A stretch of DNA of 27,087 nucleotides from Octopus sinensis (lineage: Eukaryota), in assembly GCF_006345805.1 (NCBI RefSeq), contig NW_021834032.1, positions 1 to 27,087 on the forward strand, written 5' to 3'. Positions 8,205-18,812 of this stretch are shown in pieces; position 1 is the first letter of the stretch, and every line of letters starts with the position of its first letter. Position numbers and translations under genes: made by a program. The notes under the pieces were generated by a model, which saw only the letters and a program-made list of their open reading frames with translations, was not told where the DNA came from and searched no databases.

Positions 8205-8820
8205 CTGAAATTATATACTCGAGGTTATTGGTTTTGTGGTATGGTTGATATTCGCCCGAACTCAAATCCAAGATAACTTCTAAGAAATCAGCTTTAGTAT
8301 ATAATCGTGAAGAACATATATTAATTTTGACTCTAACCACCCCAAAATATCACCCAATCTATAGACATTTCGACCTGCATATCTAGACGTTCCGCGAATG
8401 AGATCTTTAGAAACAATGGTGGAATCAGGATATAGGGAGAATAGAAATAGGACCCAGAACCTAGCATTTACGGATAACAGGAATAGTGAAAATAACTGGG
8501 GAAAACCTCCATAAGCGAAAGGTCATCTCTGCTAGCAGCGCTCGGATTAAGTTAATAATGAAAATAATCGAATTATGAATCGGGATAGTAACATAGATAA
8601 TACTGATATAGACAAACGCGAAAGTGCAGTTAAACCCCCTAGCAAAACCGGTAATTTAAGCAATACTGAGACAGGCACAAAAAAATACGAGTACCATCCT
8701 TAAAGGAAGGAATATATCGAGTGATAGTAATATAGACAAGTATTATAACAACAATGCAGACAAATCCCTTCAAAAAACGGATAGTTTTCATAAATATAGG
8801 CCTACTTCCCAAAAGAATAA
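8205..8820 (-). pseudogene. highly decayed Penelope-like reverse transcriptase fragment (inverted 5' part)
   Basis: 8349->8211 translates YFGVVRVKINICSSRLYTKADFLEVILDLSSGEYQPYHKTNNLEYI, resembling the PLE RT motif FLDVTLDLxxGxYxPYxKPN; upstream LYPDS may be the YRDD remnant; extent beyond ~8450 is uncertain. Confidence 0.55.
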
Positions 8821-8847
8821 TGACCCCCCCCCCACACACACACACAC

Positions 8848-9505
8848 AAAAGAATTAATAAATCGAGGACTATACTATATAATGCGGCGAGCTTTAGGCG
8901 GCGAGCTGGCAGAAACGTTAGCACGCCGGGCGAAATGCGTAGCCGTATTTCGTCTGCCGTTACGTTCTGAGTTCAAATTCCACCGAGGTCGACTTTGCCT
9001 TTCATCCTTTCGGGGTCGTTTAAATAAGTACCAGTTACGAAGTGGGGTCGATATAATCGACTTAATCCGTTTGTCTGTCCTCGTTTGTCGTCTCTGTGTT
9101 TAGCCCCTTGTGGGTAGTAAAGAAATAGGTATAATGCGGCATTCGACAGACTAAAAGATACTGACATTTCAGTAAAATTTTTAACAGCTTTGGATAAACA
9201 CTTCCCTAAATTGAGTGAGTACAGTGCGATCTTCAATCGGCGCACGATTAGATGTGCATTGTGTGTGTATGCGTGCGCGGTTTGTTATATTTATTTCTTC
9301 CAAGACGGACTCAGTATCTTGCCGCCTCCATTTTGAAAATCCTAACCATCTCCGTATTTTTCCAGGTCGTCACCTTCCTCAGATAACAAATAATAAATGT
9401 TTTAAGTGAGGTTAACAGTCATTGTATGTTTTTCTATGGCAATCGTTTTGGTTTCAACAAACGATCTCAGGTCAAATCACTTGACTGGCAAGCACACTTC
9501 CGTAA
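8848..9505 (+). pseudogene. decayed Penelope-like element linker/GIY-YIG C-terminus and 3' UTR, interrupted by a SINE
   Basis: removing the SINE and one TSD restores KRINKSRTILYNAAFDRLKDTDISVKFLTALDKHFPKLSEYSAIFNRRTIRCALC (cf. PLE RNIIWFNPPFS...FLxLIDKHFP...KIFNRNTVKISYSC); later INVLSEVNSHC (cf. LNKRSELxSxCRH). Confidence 0.75.
8896..9129 (+). mobile_element. Nin/Deu-domain SINE, tail type 1, full length
   Basis: complete head, core and tail; 11-bp TSD TATAATGCGGC at 8878-8888 and 9130-9140. Confidence 0.92.
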
Positions 9506-9723
9506 CTGGTTCCCAAATTTTATCGAATTACATTTGTACTTCTGGATATCTCTCAGATTCGCTACAAGTTCCATGCGCAATGTTTTCATCCTTCTTATTT
9601 TTTTTTTTTTTTAGAACACACACACTCTCTCTCTCTCTTTACTGTTTTCTTATAGAAGATGACCTTGGTCTTTTAAAATACCGAGTTAACACGTGCTTAG
9701 TATAATGTCGGCGATTACCTCAA

Positions 9724-9724
9724 T

Positions 9725-9787
<63 letters not shown>

Positions 9788-9789
9788 TT
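9724..9789. repeat. (TTTA)n microsatellite
   Basis: directly visible. Confidence 0.95.
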
Positions 9790-9803
9790 CTAAATGGCTT
9801 TGC

Positions 9804-10007
9804 AGGCGACCAGCTGGCAGAAGCGTTAGCAACGCTGAGCAAAATGCTTGGCGATATTTCATCCGTTTCCAAGTTCAAATTCCGTCAAGGTCGATTTTGC
9901 TTTTATCCTTCTGTGGGGTCGATGAATTAAGGACGAGCACTGGGGTTGATGTAATCGACTTACATTCTTCCTCCAAAATTGCTGGCTCTATACCAAAATT
10001 TGAAACC
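9804..10007 (+). mobile_element. Nin/Deu-domain SINE, tail type 2
   Basis: AGCTGGCAGAAGCGTTAGC head to CCAAAATTTGAAACC tail. Confidence 0.85.
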
Positions 10008-10289
10008 ATTATTTTTATCGGTTCTTTTGTTACTATCTCATTTTATTTCCTTTTATTATTCAGCTCCTTTATTTCCATTTAATTTACCGTATTTTATTAT
10101 CACCAGTTCTCTCAGTTCTTTTATTATCATTTCATCGCATTCCATTTAAATCTTTATCAGTCATTTTCCTATCCTTTACTTGTTATCTTAATTATGTTCA
10201 AGTATACAAAGTTCTTGTAACATCAATGCCATCCACGCCGTTCCCATAACCTTTTAACCTGGAAGTGGCCTATGAGTTTTGGTTTGTGC

Positions 10290-10356
<67 letters not shown>

Positions 10357-10552
10357 TATTACATTATATAAAAGGGCTTAGTAAAATAAATTACTTTGCC
10401 GCATACTGAACTCATTAGAAATAGCAGCTAAAAAAAACTTTTTTAAAACTATTTCTAATACTTAAAGAAAACCTCTCTCATATAGTGTTTGCTCAATTCA
10501 ACTCACGCAAATATGGGGGTAGAGACATTAAAAAATCAAGTGCAAGGTTATT

Positions 10553-10604
10553 TGAGAACGTACGTTTCAAGATTAGTCAAGTCGACATTTCTATCATCAG
10601 CTCA
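10553..10604 (-). ncRNA. type I hammerhead ribozyme motif (PLE-type)
   Basis: UGAG-CUGAUGA-[stem II]-GAAA-CGUACG-UU^-CUCA; stem I UGAG/CUCA; palindromic stem III AACGUACGUU. Confidence 0.7.
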
Positions 10605-11502
10605 GACTCCCTGGTTTGGATTTGAAAACACTGAAAGTGGGAGCATACCCTTTCGGCTTCCTCTCGCTTCTGAAGATCTGCTCGTAACTAACAGTGCCAA
10701 CAAACTCAAAAATGCAAGCGAAGAATTTCTGCTCTCCCCTTTCCACCAGCGTGGGTAAAAATCAGTAAACACTATGCTTTTTTTCGGTAAAATCCGCGGC
10801 ATTATATAGAGAGAGATGAATTATAATTTCAACAATTGAGGGTAAAATTAATTAATTAATCAATTTCACCAAGTATTCAGTATGCAAAGGGACCATTATA
10901 AGGCGAATTCAAATTATTACATTATATAAAAGGGCTTAGTAAAATAAATTACTTTGCCGCATACTGAACTCATTAGAATAAGCAGCTAAAAAAAACTTTT
11001 TTAAAACTATTTCTAATACTTAAAGAAAACCTCTCTCATATTTGTGTGAGTTGAATGAGCAAACACTATATGAGAGAGGTTTTCTTTAAGTATTAGAAAT
11101 AGTTTTTTAAAAAAGTTTTTTTTTTGCTGCTATTTCTAATGAGTTCAGTATGCGGCAAAGTAATTTATTTTACTAAGCCCTTTTATATATGTAATAATTT
11201 GAATTCGCCTTAAATGGTCCCTTTGCATACTGAATACTTGGTGAAATTGATTAATTAATTATTTTACCCTCAATTGTTGAAATTATAATTCATCTCTCTC
11301 TATATAATGCCGCGGATTTTACCAAAAAAGCATAGTGTTTACTGATTTTAACCCACGCTGGTGGAAAGGGGAGAGCAGAAATTCTTCGCTTGCATTTTTG
11401 AGTTTGTTGGCACTGTTAGTTACGAGCAGATCTTCAGAAGCGAGAGGAAGCCGAAAGGGTATGCTCCCACTTTCAGTGTTTTCAAATCCAACCAGGGAGT
11501 TC

Positions 11503-11555
11503 TGAGCTGATGATAGAAATGTCGACTTTGACTAATCTTGAAACGTACGTTCTCA
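11503..11555 (+). ncRNA. type I hammerhead ribozyme motif (PLE-type), inverted copy
   Basis: CTGATGA 11507-11513, GAAA 11540-11543, predicted cleavage after GUU at 11551, stem I TGAG (11503-06) / CTCA (11552-55). Confidence 0.7.
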
Positions 11556-11838
11556 AATAACCTTTGCACTTGATTTTTTAATGTCTCTACCCCCATATTT
11601 GCGTGAGTTGAATTGAGCAAACACTATATGAGAGAGGTTTTCTTTAAGTATTAGAAATAGTTTTAAAAAAGTTTTTTTTAGCTGCTATTTCTAATGAGTT
11701 CAGTATGCGGCAAAGTAATTTATTTTACTAAGCCCTTTTATATAATGTAATAATTTGAATTCGCCTTAAATGGTCCCTTTGCATACTGAATACTTGGTGA
11801 AATTGATTAATTAATTAATTTTACCCTCAATTGTTGAA

Positions 11839-11873
<35 letters not shown>

Positions 11874-12221
11874 ATACATACATACATACATACATACGTA
11901 CATACATATATATACATACATACATACACACGTGCACAGACGCGCGCGTGCGCACACACTCACACACGGTTTATAGATGAGAGACAAATATTCCCTGTAT
12001 AGAATACACTTCGTAGTGCTCAAGAGGTTTAAACATGAGCAGGTAGAGGAGTAAATGTAAGGATAAGCAAGTTCGGCAAGTTGATATATAAAAAATATAC
12101 AAGTCGATATACAAAATTTAATATTAAAAAAATGTACATATGTTTACTTATAAAATGGTACTACTTACATAGAATAGAAACGATATCAGTAATTAAAGGG
12201 GTTGCATAAGTGGTTTACGAG

Positions 12222-12312
12222 TCCTACAGCTGTTTCTTGGGGCTTGGTGGTCCAAAATAACGATTGTAACTTGATTCCATCATCGGATAATACGAGCCTC
12301 CGTCTTCAGGGA
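12222..12312 (-). ncRNA. degenerate type I hammerhead candidate with long stem II region
   Basis: minus strand UCC-CUGAAGA-(66 nt)-GAAA-CAGCUG-UA^-GGA; 3-bp stem I, palindromic ACAGCUGU; stem II closure is poor. Confidence 0.35.
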
Positions 12313-12351
12313 AGAAGTTTTACATTTGAGGTGTCAACATTTTATTTATGA

Positions 12352-12406
<55 letters not shown>

Positions 12407-12453
12407 GTTGTTGTTGTTGTTGTTGTTGTTGTTATCATTATTATTATTATTAT
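12352..12453. repeat. (TTA)n/(TTG)n microsatellite
   Basis: directly visible. Confidence 0.95.
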
Positions 12454-12458
12454 AGTTG

Positions 12459-12772
12459 GGACCCCCTTCGGTCATGACTGACCATGGGATTGCACCTAGA
12501 AAGTTACCCTCCCAGGCACAAGTCCGGGCAAGGTTGGTTATGAAAGACCAGCAATCGCCCATGCATACCGGCCTCCCCTCTTCAGTGTTATTCAAGGGAA
12601 AGGCAAAGGCCGATACAGCTTGGCACCAGTGACGTTGCAACTCATTTCTACAGCTGAGTGAACTGGAGCAACGTGAAATAAAGTGTCTTGCTCAAGAACA
12701 CAACACGCAGCCCGGTCCGGGATTCGAACTCACACCCTCACGATCGTAAGCTCGACGCTCTAACCGCTAAGC

Positions 12773-12774
<2 letters not shown>
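12459..12774 (-). mobile_element. tRNA-derived SINE (head A + CORE-like body + tail Y)
   Basis: minus-strand B box GAGTTCGAATCC; ~12637-12770 is homologous to ~355-487, then an unrelated 3' tail; sits inside a (TTA)n tract. Confidence 0.88.
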
Positions 12775-12869
<95 letters not shown>

Positions 12870-12920
12870 GCTGTTGTTGTTGTCGTCGTTGCTGTTGCTG
12901 TTGTTGTTGCTACTACTATT
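12773..12920. repeat. (TTA)n/(TTG)n microsatellite
   Basis: directly visible; accounts for poly-L/poly-N ORFs. Confidence 0.95.
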
Positions 12921-13510
12921 AGTGAACTGGCAGAATCGTAGCACGCCGGGCAAAATGTTTAGCGGCATTTTGCCTGTCTTTACGTTCTGTATTCAAATTC
13001 CGCCGAGGTCAACTTTGCTTTTTATTCTTTCGAGGTCAATAAATTAAGTACCAGTTGCGTACTGGGGTTGATCTAATCGACTGGCTCCATCTCTCAAGAA
13101 TTTCGGGTCGTGTGCCTAGAGTAGAAAAGAATCGTTAGCACGCCGGGCGAAATGCTTAGCGGTATTTCGTCTGCCGCTACGTTCTGAGTTCGAATTTCGT
13201 CGAGGTCGACTTTGCCTTTCATCCTTTCGGGGTCGATTAAATAAGTATCAGTTACGCACTGAGGTCGATATAACCGTCTTAATCCGTTTGTCTGTCCTTG
13301 TTTGTCCTCTCTGTGTTTAGCCCCTTGTGGGTAGTAAAGAAATAGGTATTTCGTCTGTCTTCATGTTCTGAATTCAAATACTGTCGGGGTCGACTTTGCC
13401 TTTCATCTTCTCGGGGTCGATAAATTAAGTACCAGATGAGAACTGGGGTTGATGTAATCGACTAGCCCCCTCCAACAAAATTTCCGGCCTTGTACCTTTA
13501 GTAGAAAGGA
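12921..13510 (+). mobile_element. Nin/Deu SINE trimer (tails 2-1-2; second and third units 5'-truncated)
   Basis: three Nin cores at ~13007, ~13203 and ~13388 joined without spacer. Confidence 0.88.
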
Positions 13511-13514
13511 TTAT

Positions 13515-14790
13515 TGTTTTTCTCTTTATTACAGGTTTTGTTGGAGGTCCTGGAGACTTGCATGCGTAGCGTACTTACTACCTGCTATTCGTTCTTTTCA
13601 GCTATCTAATACTTTCTTGAATATTCCGACCGTGCCAAGGAGGCCAACCTTTTGTAACAGTTCTACTGGGCACTCTATTACAATTTCTTTTATATTCCTC
13701 TTGATGTCTTCTGATACTGTTCCCAGGGACCCAACAATAATTGGCACTATCTTCACCTTCTTCATTTTCCAGAGCCATGCTATTTCGTACTTAAGACAGT
13801 TGTATCTATCTTACCGCTTTCCTTCTCGACTATTAGTGGGTCAAAGGGGCATGCAACATTGACCATATAGCATATATGATGCACCTTGTCCACCACTACT
13901 CGGTTCGGTCTGTTATCCTCTAGCACCTAATCTGTTTGGATTGGGAAATCACAGAGGATTTTGCTAGTTTCCGACTCTGCCACTCACTGCGATTTGTTCT
14001 CATACCACATCTTGCCTCTCTCTAGCTCCCACTTTTCGCACAGTTTCCAAATGTAGCACTTTCGCTACCTGGTCGTGGTTTTGGGCAAGTCTAGGACATT
14101 GGTTCGGGATATGGGCAATGGTTTCATCTACTCTATCGCAGATGCGGCACAGCGAAGACACTTGCTCATTCCCCAGGTCGGCCCTACAGTTCGTGGCCAA
14201 AGTTTGGTCCTGCACCGCCAGTATAGTGCTCTTGGTCTCTTTTTTTAGAGTTCCTTTCATCAGCTATTTTTTCCACCTATTTTTTCCAGCAACTTCTGTT
14301 GTGGCTACATGGAATCGATTGTGTAGTCCCTTCTTGCGTAATTCTTCTTCGTGTCCTTTTTGTACTTCTTCCTTTCTTTTCCCATTTTTTCTCTGCTTTC
14401 AATACTTCATCATTCCTAACTGCCATTAGCATGGTTTCCTTACATTGGGCTAGGTGTCTCATTAAACTCTCGAGTTCGATATGCACGCAGTCTTCCACAC
14501 TTATCAATCCCCATCCTCCATTTGCTCTCTTCATGTATAGGCGATCAGTGCCTTCATGTGGATGATGGGCTCCATGCGTCATTAGGAGCTTTCTTGTCTT
14601 CCTATCTCCTTTAGCTCCTCCTCTGTCCACTTCAGGATTCTAGCGCCGTACCTAACATCTGCGACTGCGCGCGAGTTTATTGCCGAAATTATGTTTCTAG
14701 CATTCAGCTTTGAAGCCAATAATTTTCTCACTCGCCACAGGTACTCTCTTTTTGTCTTTTCCTTCACGTCATGGTGTTTGCTCCATCATT
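13515..14790 (-). mobile_element. 5'-truncated, frameshifted non-LTR retrotransposon with restriction-like endonuclease (R4/Dong-like)
   Basis: peptides EYLWRVRKLLASKLNARN, DRKTRKLL..DRLYMKRANGGWGL, ILAVQDQTLATN, CCHC knuckle CRIC..ETIAHIPNQC, HDQVAKVLH, C-terminal LQKVGLLGTVGIFKKVL*. Confidence 0.88.
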
Positions 14791-17871: not shown

Positions 17872-18812
17872 TCAGATCATCCCCATAAGTTCTGTCCGAT
17901 TTTACCTTTTTTAAAATTGAATGAAATTTGATAGTATTTTAGAATGTCTAATGGAATTAAAATGTATTTTTATGCATTTGTGTGCATTTAAACTAATTAA
18001 ATATTATTTTACAGAATAATAGAATTTAAATTTCTTTGATTAAAACCCTTTCTAACATGGAAGTATCCAAAGAGCATTTGAGGCACATAATGCTTTATGA
18101 GTACAGCTCTTCTCTCCATTCTCGCGAACTCATTTCACCCTTTTTGGATAGACTTGTGACTGGTGACGAAAAATGGATCTTCTATCGAAATGTTAAACGT
18201 CGTAAACAGTAGCTTGGTAAAAAGGAAAAAGATCAACCACAACCGAGAAGGGAACTTCATAAGAAAAAGGTTCTTTTTTTTTTCTATCTGGTGGGATTGC
18301 AAAGGCGTAATTCACTTTGAATTTTTACCACCTAATGCAACAATCAATGCTCAAGTCTACTGTCAGCAATTAGAGCGTTTGAACCAAGCTTTGAAGAAAA
18401 AATTAACCGCTTTAGCGAATCGAAAAGGAGTGATGTTTCAGCAGGACAATGCGCGACCCCACACTGCAAAGATCACATCACAGAAGATCGAAGAGCTTGG
18501 TTGGGAAAAAATTCCTCATCCACCTTATTCTCCCGACCTTACTCCTTCAGACTACTATTTGTTTCGTAGTTTACAGAATCATTTGAAGGGCATAACTTTC
18601 GCAAGCCAGGAGGAGGTCGAAACATTTCAGAGTTCTTCGCTTTGAAACCAAAAGAGTTTTACATTGATGGGATTAAAAAGCTTGTAAATAGATGGAAGGA
18701 AGTCATAGATAACCAGGGAAAGTACATTGATGATTAAATTTCAATTATATATAACTTTTGATCACTTGTTTTCTTTATTCAAAATTCGGACAGAACTTAT
18801 GGCATGACCTGA
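17872..18812 (+). mobile_element. mariner (DD34D) transposon, internally deleted
   Basis: TIRs TCAGATCATCCCCATAAGTTCTGTCCGA.. / ..TCGGACAGAACTTATGGCATGACCTGA; TA TSD at 17870-71 and 18813-14. Confidence 0.95.
18057..18737 (+). pseudogene. mariner transposase pseudogene lacking most of the DNA-binding domain
   Basis: MEVSKEHLRHIMLYEY then a deletion to FLDRLVTGDEKWIFY, WWDCKG, QDNARPH, HPPYSPDLTPSDYYLF; stop and frameshifts present. Confidence 0.93.

What the first reader, a model, noticed from the sequence alone, without database searches (positions are those of the whole stretch)
10353..11844. Non-coding ~557-bp hammerhead-bearing unit inserted as an inverted pair of more-than-unit-length concatemers (retrozyme-like / non-autonomous PLE)
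Seen: both arms are tandem, circularly permuted reads of one ~557-bp unit (about 1.2 units on the minus strand at left, about 1.4 units on the plus strand at right). They are joined head-to-head through a 5-bp CATAT microhomology, with both 3' ends running into (TA)n. Each arm has one hammerhead motif and there is no credible ORF. Known: Penelope-like elements carry type I hammerheads in their pseudo-LTRs and form partial-tandem and inverted insertions; metazoan non-LTR retrozymes are non-coding hammerhead repeats that yield circular RNAs and are thought to use PLE machinery. Inference: this is a young, possibly undescribed retrozyme-like family whose ~557-nt self-cleaved monomer or circle was copied more than once around by a PLE RT.
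Basis: partly seen in the sequence, partly recalled or inferred. Interest (0 to 1): 0.85.

Follow-up and report, generated by a model that had tools for sequence, protein, structure and literature searches.

The report
Head-to-head hammerhead retrozyme-like insertion
A 557-base, protein-free repeat with a predicted self-cutting RNA motif sits in a TA microsatellite as two back-to-back arms, the layout known from Penelope-type jumping genes, so it is likely a small RNA parasite pasted in by their enzyme: a known kind of element, whose ends hint at how the copying would work.

Summary
Observation confirmed. Two arms of one 557-bp non-coding unit (1.24 units on minus, 1.45 on plus) meet head-to-head at a shared CATAT and end in (TA)n; each holds one type I hammerhead motif of the axolotl HHR_Amex2 build. 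The unit is an abundant, diverse family: thousands of contigs in runs of three organism labels, read through its own boundary in other copies. The layout is the published Penelope-like (PLE) insertion anatomy: partial tandem, inverted 5'-truncated copy, one-sided tail, (TA)n target. Added here: the arms share 33 of 34 testable family-variable sites (one template), their 3' ends are reverse-complementary 7-mers, and both 5' ends stop 42 and 73 nt past the predicted cut. Not shown: cleavage, circular RNA, the partner PLE, independent support for this locus's junction. Each arm has one hammerhead, so this copy is not an 'active' retrozyme by Li 2026. The scan reported this kind before on other DNA, including a ~560-bp head-to-head case in this genome. 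New member of a known kind; interest 0.4.

The parts
10293..10353 (.). (AT)30.5 microsatellite, left part of the target
10353..11041 (-). left arm, 689 nt = 1.24 units, 5'-truncated, colinear with right arm 11068-11756; 3' end at 10353
10353..10359 (+). AAATTAT, 7-bp direct repeat with 11837-11843; also the last 7 nt of the left arm
10554..10603 (-). type I hammerhead motif of the left arm; predicted cut between 10557 and 10556
   Evidence: sequence
11037..11041 (.). CATAT microhomology shared by both arms (head-to-head junction); 26-nt spacer 11042-11067 separates the paired arms
11037..11844 (+). right arm, 808 nt = 1.45 units (11037-11287 repeats 11594-11844)
11504..11554 (+). type I hammerhead motif: stem I GAG/CUC, CUGAUGA 11507-11513, stem II with U.U at its base, GAAA 11540-11543, palindromic helix III; predicted cut 11551/11552
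11757..11844 (+). 88-nt 3' extension present at the right end only ('tail'-like)
11837..11843 (+). AAATTAT, second copy of the 7-bp repeat; reverse complement of the left arm's RNA 3' end (unit 11750-11756)
11842..11928 (.). (TA)n/(TACA)n microsatellite, right part of the target

Best explanation
This is one insertion of an abundant 557-bp non-coding repeat with a predicted type I hammerhead, laid head-to-head in a TA microsatellite, and it was likely pasted in one event by a borrowed Penelope-like RT/endonuclease that primed on the element's RNA from both cut DNA ends. Steps: (1, inferred) a tandem source copy is transcribed and the weak hammerhead, which would cut best as a dimer, cuts only some junctions; (2, inferred from PAc biochemistry) the GIY-YIG endonuclease nicks both strands of (TA)n and each 3' end starts reverse transcription inside the RNA, at two sites 88 nt apart (unit 11756 and 11844); (3, shown as sequence) each cDNA runs past one whole unit and one uncut hammerhead; (4, inferred) both stop near the RNA's 5' end at the previous cut, 42 and 73 nt short of it, so I slightly favour a partly cut linear multimer over a circle as template (about 55:45); (5, shown as sequence, route inferred) the two cDNA ends join through the 5-nt CATAT microhomology.
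For: Anatomy matches published PLE insertions point by point: partial tandem, inverted 5'-truncated copy at the 5' end, tail at one end, (TA)n targets (Craig 2021); overlap between inverted and direct repeat, head-to-head most frequent (Arkhipova 2013). Purified PAc cuts and extends both strands of AT-rich DNA and starts RT at two internal RNA sites whose spacing is the tail (Frangieh 2024). Hammerhead build equals axolotl HHR_Amex2 (2-bp helix III with tetraloop, U.U at base of helix II), which cleaves 22% as monomer and much better as dimer; 11542-11551 is a perfect 10-nt palindrome. Family: 10,934, 3,010, 1,957 and 4,268 contigs laid in 4 of 4 large runs of organism labels A, B, C, A, all 30 bins covered in 7 of 8 runs laid and 29 in the eighth. 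Contigs read across the unit boundary in two different phases (11843 to 11288 in X2; 11660-11678 to 11130 in 4 of 4 runs). Two contigs in X10 end at 11287 (= 11844) and go on into TATATATAT. The arms carry the same letter at 33 of 34 testable family-variable sites, including alleles that are a minority in the family (11569, 11598, 11601): one template. Their 3' ends are reverse-complementary 7-mers (chance 0.06% of all end pairs, 0.9% of AT-ended pairs). Loose ends of a diverged subfamily change the motif only in ways it tolerates: N7 U to C, U10.1 to A restoring the A-U pair, A to G wobble in stem I (table 7). Flanks are not mirrored.
Against: This locus's own junction (11625/11594, opposite strands) was not listed in any of 8 runs laid (tables are cut, contigs drop rare forms). 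No listed loose end marks the left arm's end (11200 = 11756), so a second fixed end is not shown for this family; the two X10 contigs could be this very insertion. The 7-bp stem between the two end sites is not favoured in folding (pair probability at most 0.07; 0 in the circle), and A11753T in about 10-40% of depth would break it unless compensated. The 88-nt tail is longer than the 30-40 bp reported. The catalytic fold is not the minimum-energy fold (-9.3 against -13.0 kcal/mol; z +1.15). Absence of listed variants from the 25 core and stem positions is not significant (expected 1.7, P = 0.16; 6 rows hidden). The junction geometry fits self-priming equally (26% of all 5-nt microhomology pairs lie within 40 nt). 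No partner PLE could be sought (no genome). In PAc, hammerhead cleavage was not needed for insertion in vitro.
Confidence: 0.5

Rival explanations
1. Same element and same borrowed PLE enzyme, but one cDNA only: primed at the right (TA)n, it ran 1.45 units, folded back on itself at the CATAT/ATATG hairpin, copied its own first 689 nt and was joined to the left end (self-priming, as proposed by Arkhipova 2013).
For: The last 5 nt of the right arm's cDNA are predicted to pair with CATAT 26 nt upstream (DNA fold); only 32 of 557 stop positions allow such a fold-back within 40 nt. Left arm is exactly colinear with the right arm and shares its alleles. Palindromes at inverted PLE junctions were read as self-priming.
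Against: The left arm does not share the right arm's private indels (11188, 11260, 11489 are minority forms in the family), though these may be sequencing errors. It does not by itself explain why the left end falls on the reverse complement of the right end. PAc extends both strands.
Confidence: 0.3
2. The unit is an orphan PLE pseudo-LTR or DNA-level satellite with a dead or incidental hammerhead; copies arise as truncated by-products of a coding PLE or by local amplification, with no independent RNA life cycle.
For: Li 2026 found retrozyme families homologous to pLTRs, proposed local tandem amplification, and saw cleavage in 1 of 9 elements tested. One X10 contig leaves the unit at 11301 for 255 unrelated letters. 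Each arm here has one hammerhead only.
Against: The unit reads through its own boundary in both phases tested, which a pLTR followed by an ORF would not do; no coding remnant; the motif has full helices I-III rather than the minimal pLTR type; ends in (TA)n with PLE anatomy point to retrotransposition.
Confidence: 0.12
3. The family is real but the inversion at this locus is a fold-back chimera or a misjoin at the (TA)n runs.
For: Junction not listed in 8 of 8 runs laid. Arm differences are mostly single-base indels at homopolymers and are absent from the outer 193 nt, as expected for poorly polished long-read sequence (own knowledge).
Against: Flanks are not mirrored, so two false joins would be needed; both ends fall on complementary 7-mers at TA runs; other opposite-strand joints of the unit exist in short-read contigs (11434/11530 in X1 and X2; 11324/11508 in X10; orientation not given); inverted copies are normal for PLEs.
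Confidence: 0.08

Closest known systems
Metazoan non-LTR retrozymes (coral, Mytilus, axolotl: Cervera and de la Pena 2020, PMC7229834; vertebrate survey: Li, Clavereau and Pollet 2026, 10.64898/2026.07.22.740005)
   Same: Non-coding, GC under 50% (35%), head-to-tail unit with a type I hammerhead; motif build as axolotl HHR_Amex2; unit length inside Li's 51-972 bp range; PLE mobilisation proposed in both papers.
   Different: Unit longer than Cervera's 150-450 bp. This locus has one hammerhead per arm and an inverted pair; 'inverted', 'octopus', 'cephalopod' and 'microsatellite' have 0 hits in Cervera's main text and Li's main text describes no inverted insertions. Circular RNA and cleavage not shown here.
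EN+ Penelope-like element insertions (Penelope/Poseidon, Neptune, Hydra, Naiad; Craig 2021 PMC8557442, Arkhipova 2013 PMC3846280, Frangieh 2024 PMC11167929)
   Same: Partial tandem, adjacent inverted 5'-truncated copy, short overlap at the junction, one-sided 3' extension, (TA)n target, hammerhead in the repeat.
   Different: No RT or GIY-YIG ORF; whole unit is 557 bp; extension is 88 nt, not 30-40; both arms exceed one full unit.
Non-autonomous Chlamys elements such as MRC1 (Craig 2021)
   Same: Non-autonomous PLE derivatives that form pLTRs and multicopy head-to-tail insertions.
   Different: Green algal; most Chlamys lack canonical hammerheads; sharing of a 3' end with an autonomous partner could not be tested here.

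Membership tests
Metazoan non-LTR retrozyme | Type I hammerhead motif in the unit | tested here: met
   Descriptor hit in both arms, 2 of 5000 in random controls; Rfam models did not score it
Metazoan non-LTR retrozyme | No protein coding; GC under 50%; no LTR organisation | tested here: met
   Longest frame 90 codons, 0 of 6 frames reach a Pfam cut-off; GC 0.35
Metazoan non-LTR retrozyme | Head-to-tail repetition of the unit | tested here: met
   1.24 and 1.45 units here; contigs cross the unit boundary in two phases
Metazoan non-LTR retrozyme ('active' element, Li 2026) | [quoted passage not shown] | tested here: not met
   One hammerhead per arm, arms on opposite strands. This copy is not filed as an active source; it fits Li's monomer class. 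Whether the family has full dimers could not be seen in short contigs.
Metazoan non-LTR retrozyme | Multicopy, dispersed family | tested here: met
   Thousands of distinct contigs from over 99% to under 90% identity in runs of three organism labels; no copy number can be derived
Metazoan non-LTR retrozyme | Self-cleavage of the transcript | not testable with these tools
   Needs in vitro transcription of monomer and dimer
Metazoan non-LTR retrozyme | Expression as unit-length linear and circular RNA | not testable with these tools
   Only contigs were available, which show no ends, strand or circles
Autonomous EN+ PLE | ORF with RT and GIY-YIG endonuclease | tested here: not met
PLE-type insertion | Partial tandem with adjacent inverted 5'-truncated copy | tested here: met
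   against Craig 2021
PLE-type insertion | AT-rich or (TA)n target | tested here: met
   two X10 contigs end at the same unit site in (TA)n
PLE-type insertion | 30-40 bp tail at one end | tested here: inconclusive
   One-sided extension present but 88 nt; fixed position of the second end not shown
PLE-type insertion | Target-site duplication | tested here: inconclusive
   7-bp AAATTAT repeat at both ends is also templated by the unit at both ends; the implied empty-site motif has 0 exact matches elsewhere in the window
Non-autonomous PLE | Terminus shared with an autonomous PLE of the same genome | not testable with these tools
   No genome held

The most novel reading that the evidence does not exclude
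A dimeric Penelope-type RT/endonuclease grips one hammerhead-cut retrozyme RNA at two reverse-complementary 7-nt sites 88 nt apart, starts a cDNA from each broken end of a TA microsatellite, and both cDNAs run to the ribozyme-made 5' end before joining. That single rule would explain PLE tails, head-to-head inversions and the role of the hammerhead (setting where copying stops), and would be genomic evidence that PLE enzymes mobilise retrozymes.
Probability: 0.3. Interest if true: 0.7.

Novelty: new member of a known kind. Interest (0 to 1): 0.4.

Why it matters
Which enzyme moves animal retrozymes, and how PLEs make their tandem and inverted insertions, are both stated as open in the papers read. 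A small non-coding unit that carries the full PLE footprint is a compact substrate for testing both: it names two RT start sites, a stop zone next to the ribozyme cut and a target. On its own this locus adds a family and a hypothesis, not proof; the element class and the inverted layout are each already described.

Tried and rejected
Whole-genome search: no genome held. Rfam: no hammerhead family hit; miRNA-type hits over the junction only reflect the long inverted repeat. Expression: no RNA holder listed; the two runs guessed as RNA that I laid (X10, X18; 2 of 7 so marked) cover the unit but may hold DNA, so they are not used as evidence of transcription. Summed contig depth rises towards the unit's 3' part in some runs but is no copy number and was not used. 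A 27-nt motif from the hammerhead found 0 matches in metagenome and 0 in viral contigs. Look-ups of earlier findings by sequence and by relatives gave 0 windows. Circular fold of the unit: -134.7 kcal/mol against -114.4 +/- 9.9 in 30 controls, one of which folded lower: not decisive. RNA stem between the two end sites: not supported by folding. Core conservation: not significant. Pre-existing AAATTAT target motif: 0 exact, 27 one-mismatch matches in the window. The sigma-70 scan is not meaningful for an animal genome. Classic L1-type twin priming on a single linear unit (recalled) was rejected because both arms cover the same full unit. Literature searches for octopus + hammerhead ribozyme, retrozyme + cephalopod (47), retrozyme + head-to-head (50, 0 papers), Penelope + twin priming (55) and Penelope + pLTR + inverted + template switch (25) found no description of this family or of head-to-head retrozyme insertions; the supplement of PMC7229834 could not be read, bioRxiv supplements were not seen, and Repbase/Dfam were not available, so prior annotation is not excluded.

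Full report
Observation. The structure is as described. The left arm (10353-11041, minus, 689 nt) and right arm (11037-11844, plus, 808 nt) are reads of one unit of about 557 nt, 1.24 and 1.45 units long. They share CATAT at 11037-11041 and end in (AT)30.5 and a (TA)/(TACA) run. The flanks 8300-10290 and 11930-13900 share only same-orientation dispersed repeats, no mirror image. The left arm is colinear with right-arm 11068-11756: 16 differing columns of 695, 12 of them gaps, mostly at homopolymers, none in the outer 193 nt. No frame exceeds 90 codons and 0 of 6 frames tested reach a Pfam cut-off.

Ribozyme motif. A type I descriptor of my own hit exactly the two arms in the whole window and 2 of 5000 random 557-mers. 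The motif has stem I GAG/CUC extendable by further pairing, core CUGAUGA, a stem II with U.U at its base, GAAA, and a two-pair helix III with a palindromic loop; 11542-11551 is a perfect 10-nt palindrome that could form the dimeric helix III. This is the build of axolotl HHR_Amex2, which cleaved 22% as a monomer and far better as a dimer (PMC7229834); dimer dependence of such motifs is described in PMC4209133 (passages). Against: Rfam did not score it, the catalytic fold is 3.7 kcal/mol above the minimum, and Li 2026 saw cleavage in 1 of 9 predicted elements. Cleavage is therefore predicted, not shown.

Family. No genome is held. The run index listed 20 runs of 9 studies and three coded organisms, 9 with half the words or more; I laid 8 of them. 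Four large runs gave 10,934, 3,010, 1,957 and 4,268 contigs on the unit, from over 99% to under 90% identity; four small runs gave 750, 141, 83 and 26. Contigs cross the unit boundary in both phases used (11843 to 11288 in X2; 11660-11678 to 11130 in all four small runs; one X8 contig bridges 11287/11288 with 48 and 40 letters), so the unit is read head-to-tail in other copies. Two X10 contigs end at 11287 (= 11844) and continue as TATATATAT; they may be other copies or this insertion. Opposite-strand joints appear at other sites (11434/11530 in X1 and X2; 11324/11508 in X10), orientation not given. This locus's own junction was not listed in any of the 8 runs; the tables are cut and contigs drop rare forms, so this neither confirms nor refutes it. 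Of 38 listed variable sites none falls in the 25 core and stem positions (expected 1.7, P = 0.16, 6 rows hidden), while loose ends of a diverged subfamily show only tolerated changes (N7 to C, U10.1 to A, a G.U wobble). The host is called an octopus in earlier AI notes on this genome; I did not verify it.

One event, one template. At 33 of 34 family-variable sites that map to both arms the arms agree, including alleles that are minority forms in the family. Each arm also has private homopolymer-type differences from the family form, most simply read as residual sequencing errors (own knowledge). The arms' RNA 3' ends (unit 11756 and 11844) are reverse-complementary 7-mers, which shows in the DNA as AAATTAT at both outer ends; chance 0.06% over all end pairs, 0.9% over AT-ended pairs. 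It can be read as element-set start sites or as a 7-bp target duplication that doubled as primer; the implied empty site has no exact match in the window's other microsatellites, and an RNA stem between the sites is not favoured in folding. The arms' 5' ends lie 42 and 73 nt downstream of the predicted cut (8% by chance for one end, 1.8% for two independent ends).

Mechanism. Published PLE insertions show partial tandems, an inverted 5'-truncated copy next to the 5' end, a one-sided tail and (TA)n targets (PMC8557442, passages), with short overlaps at mostly head-to-head junctions (PMC3846280, passages). Purified PAc cuts and extends both strands at AT-rich sites and starts RT at two internal RNA sites whose spacing is the tail (PMC11167929, parts 1-2 of 4). 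My best reading (0.5) is two-ended target priming by a borrowed PLE protein, both cDNAs passing one uncut hammerhead, stopping near the RNA's ribozyme-made 5' end and joining at CATAT. Self-priming fold-back (0.3) fits the junction as well: the cDNA end is predicted to pair back, and 26% of all 5-nt microhomology pairs lie within 40 nt, so geometry does not decide. Both routes need a PLE enzyme (0.8 together). Orphan pLTR or satellite (0.12) and artefact (0.08) remain.

Comparison and novelty. It works like a metazoan non-LTR retrozyme (PMC7229834, parts 2-4 of 6 read; bioRxiv 10.64898/2026.07.22.740005, parts 1-3 of 5 read). Motif, non-coding state, low GC, head-to-tail unit and multicopy family are met; two consecutive hammerheads are not met at this locus, so it is not an active source copy by Li's rule; cleavage and circular RNA are untested, so membership is provisional. 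It is not an autonomous PLE. I found no paper on this family or on head-to-head retrozyme insertions, but one supplement was unreadable, bioRxiv supplements were not seen and repeat databases were not available. Earlier AI notes of this scan report the same kind on other DNA, in this genome (units of 352-602 nt, one of about 560 bp head-to-head, possibly this family) and in others; sequence look-ups found no look-alike. These notes are unchecked and are not counted as support.

Verdict. Real, well-formed example of a known class carrying a known insertion footprint; the complementary ends and the stop zone beside the cut site give testable mechanism. New member of a known kind, interest 0.4; boldest reading probability 0.3, interest 0.7.

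Noticed in passing
window 18160-18645 (+): Tc1/mariner-type transposase fragment, Pfam Transposase_1 E 5.5e-17.
   Followed up: partly
window 14277-14639 (-): 120-codon frame that looks like the C-terminal part of a LINE reverse transcriptase (resemblance recalled); no Pfam hit.
   Followed up: partly
window 8911-9132 and 13128-13349; also 9874-10016, 12924-13082: Dispersed SINE-like repeat, 92% over 222 nt between two copies, several weaker copies in both flanks (short matches also).
   Followed up: no
window 11796-11825 (also 11240-11269, 10841-10870): Near-perfect AT-rich hairpin inside the 88-nt extension, between the two end sites; a candidate protein-recognition element.
   Followed up: no
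unit position 11301, run X10: One contig leaves the unit for 255 unrelated letters; could be a related element or a partner that shares this part.
   Followed up: no
unit positions 11434/11530 (X1, X2) and 11324/11508 (X10): Other opposite-strand joints of the unit; each has one side inside the hammerhead, and this locus's joint lies just downstream of it. n = 3, orientation unknown.
   Followed up: partly
unit 11569, 11598, 11601: The window's alleles are minority forms in the family and most common in run X2 among the four large runs; the T at 11598 completes the CATAT microhomology.
   Followed up: partly
whole window: 46 tandem-repeat rows, nearly all microsatellites; they cause the many spurious miRNA matches in Rfam.
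   Followed up: no
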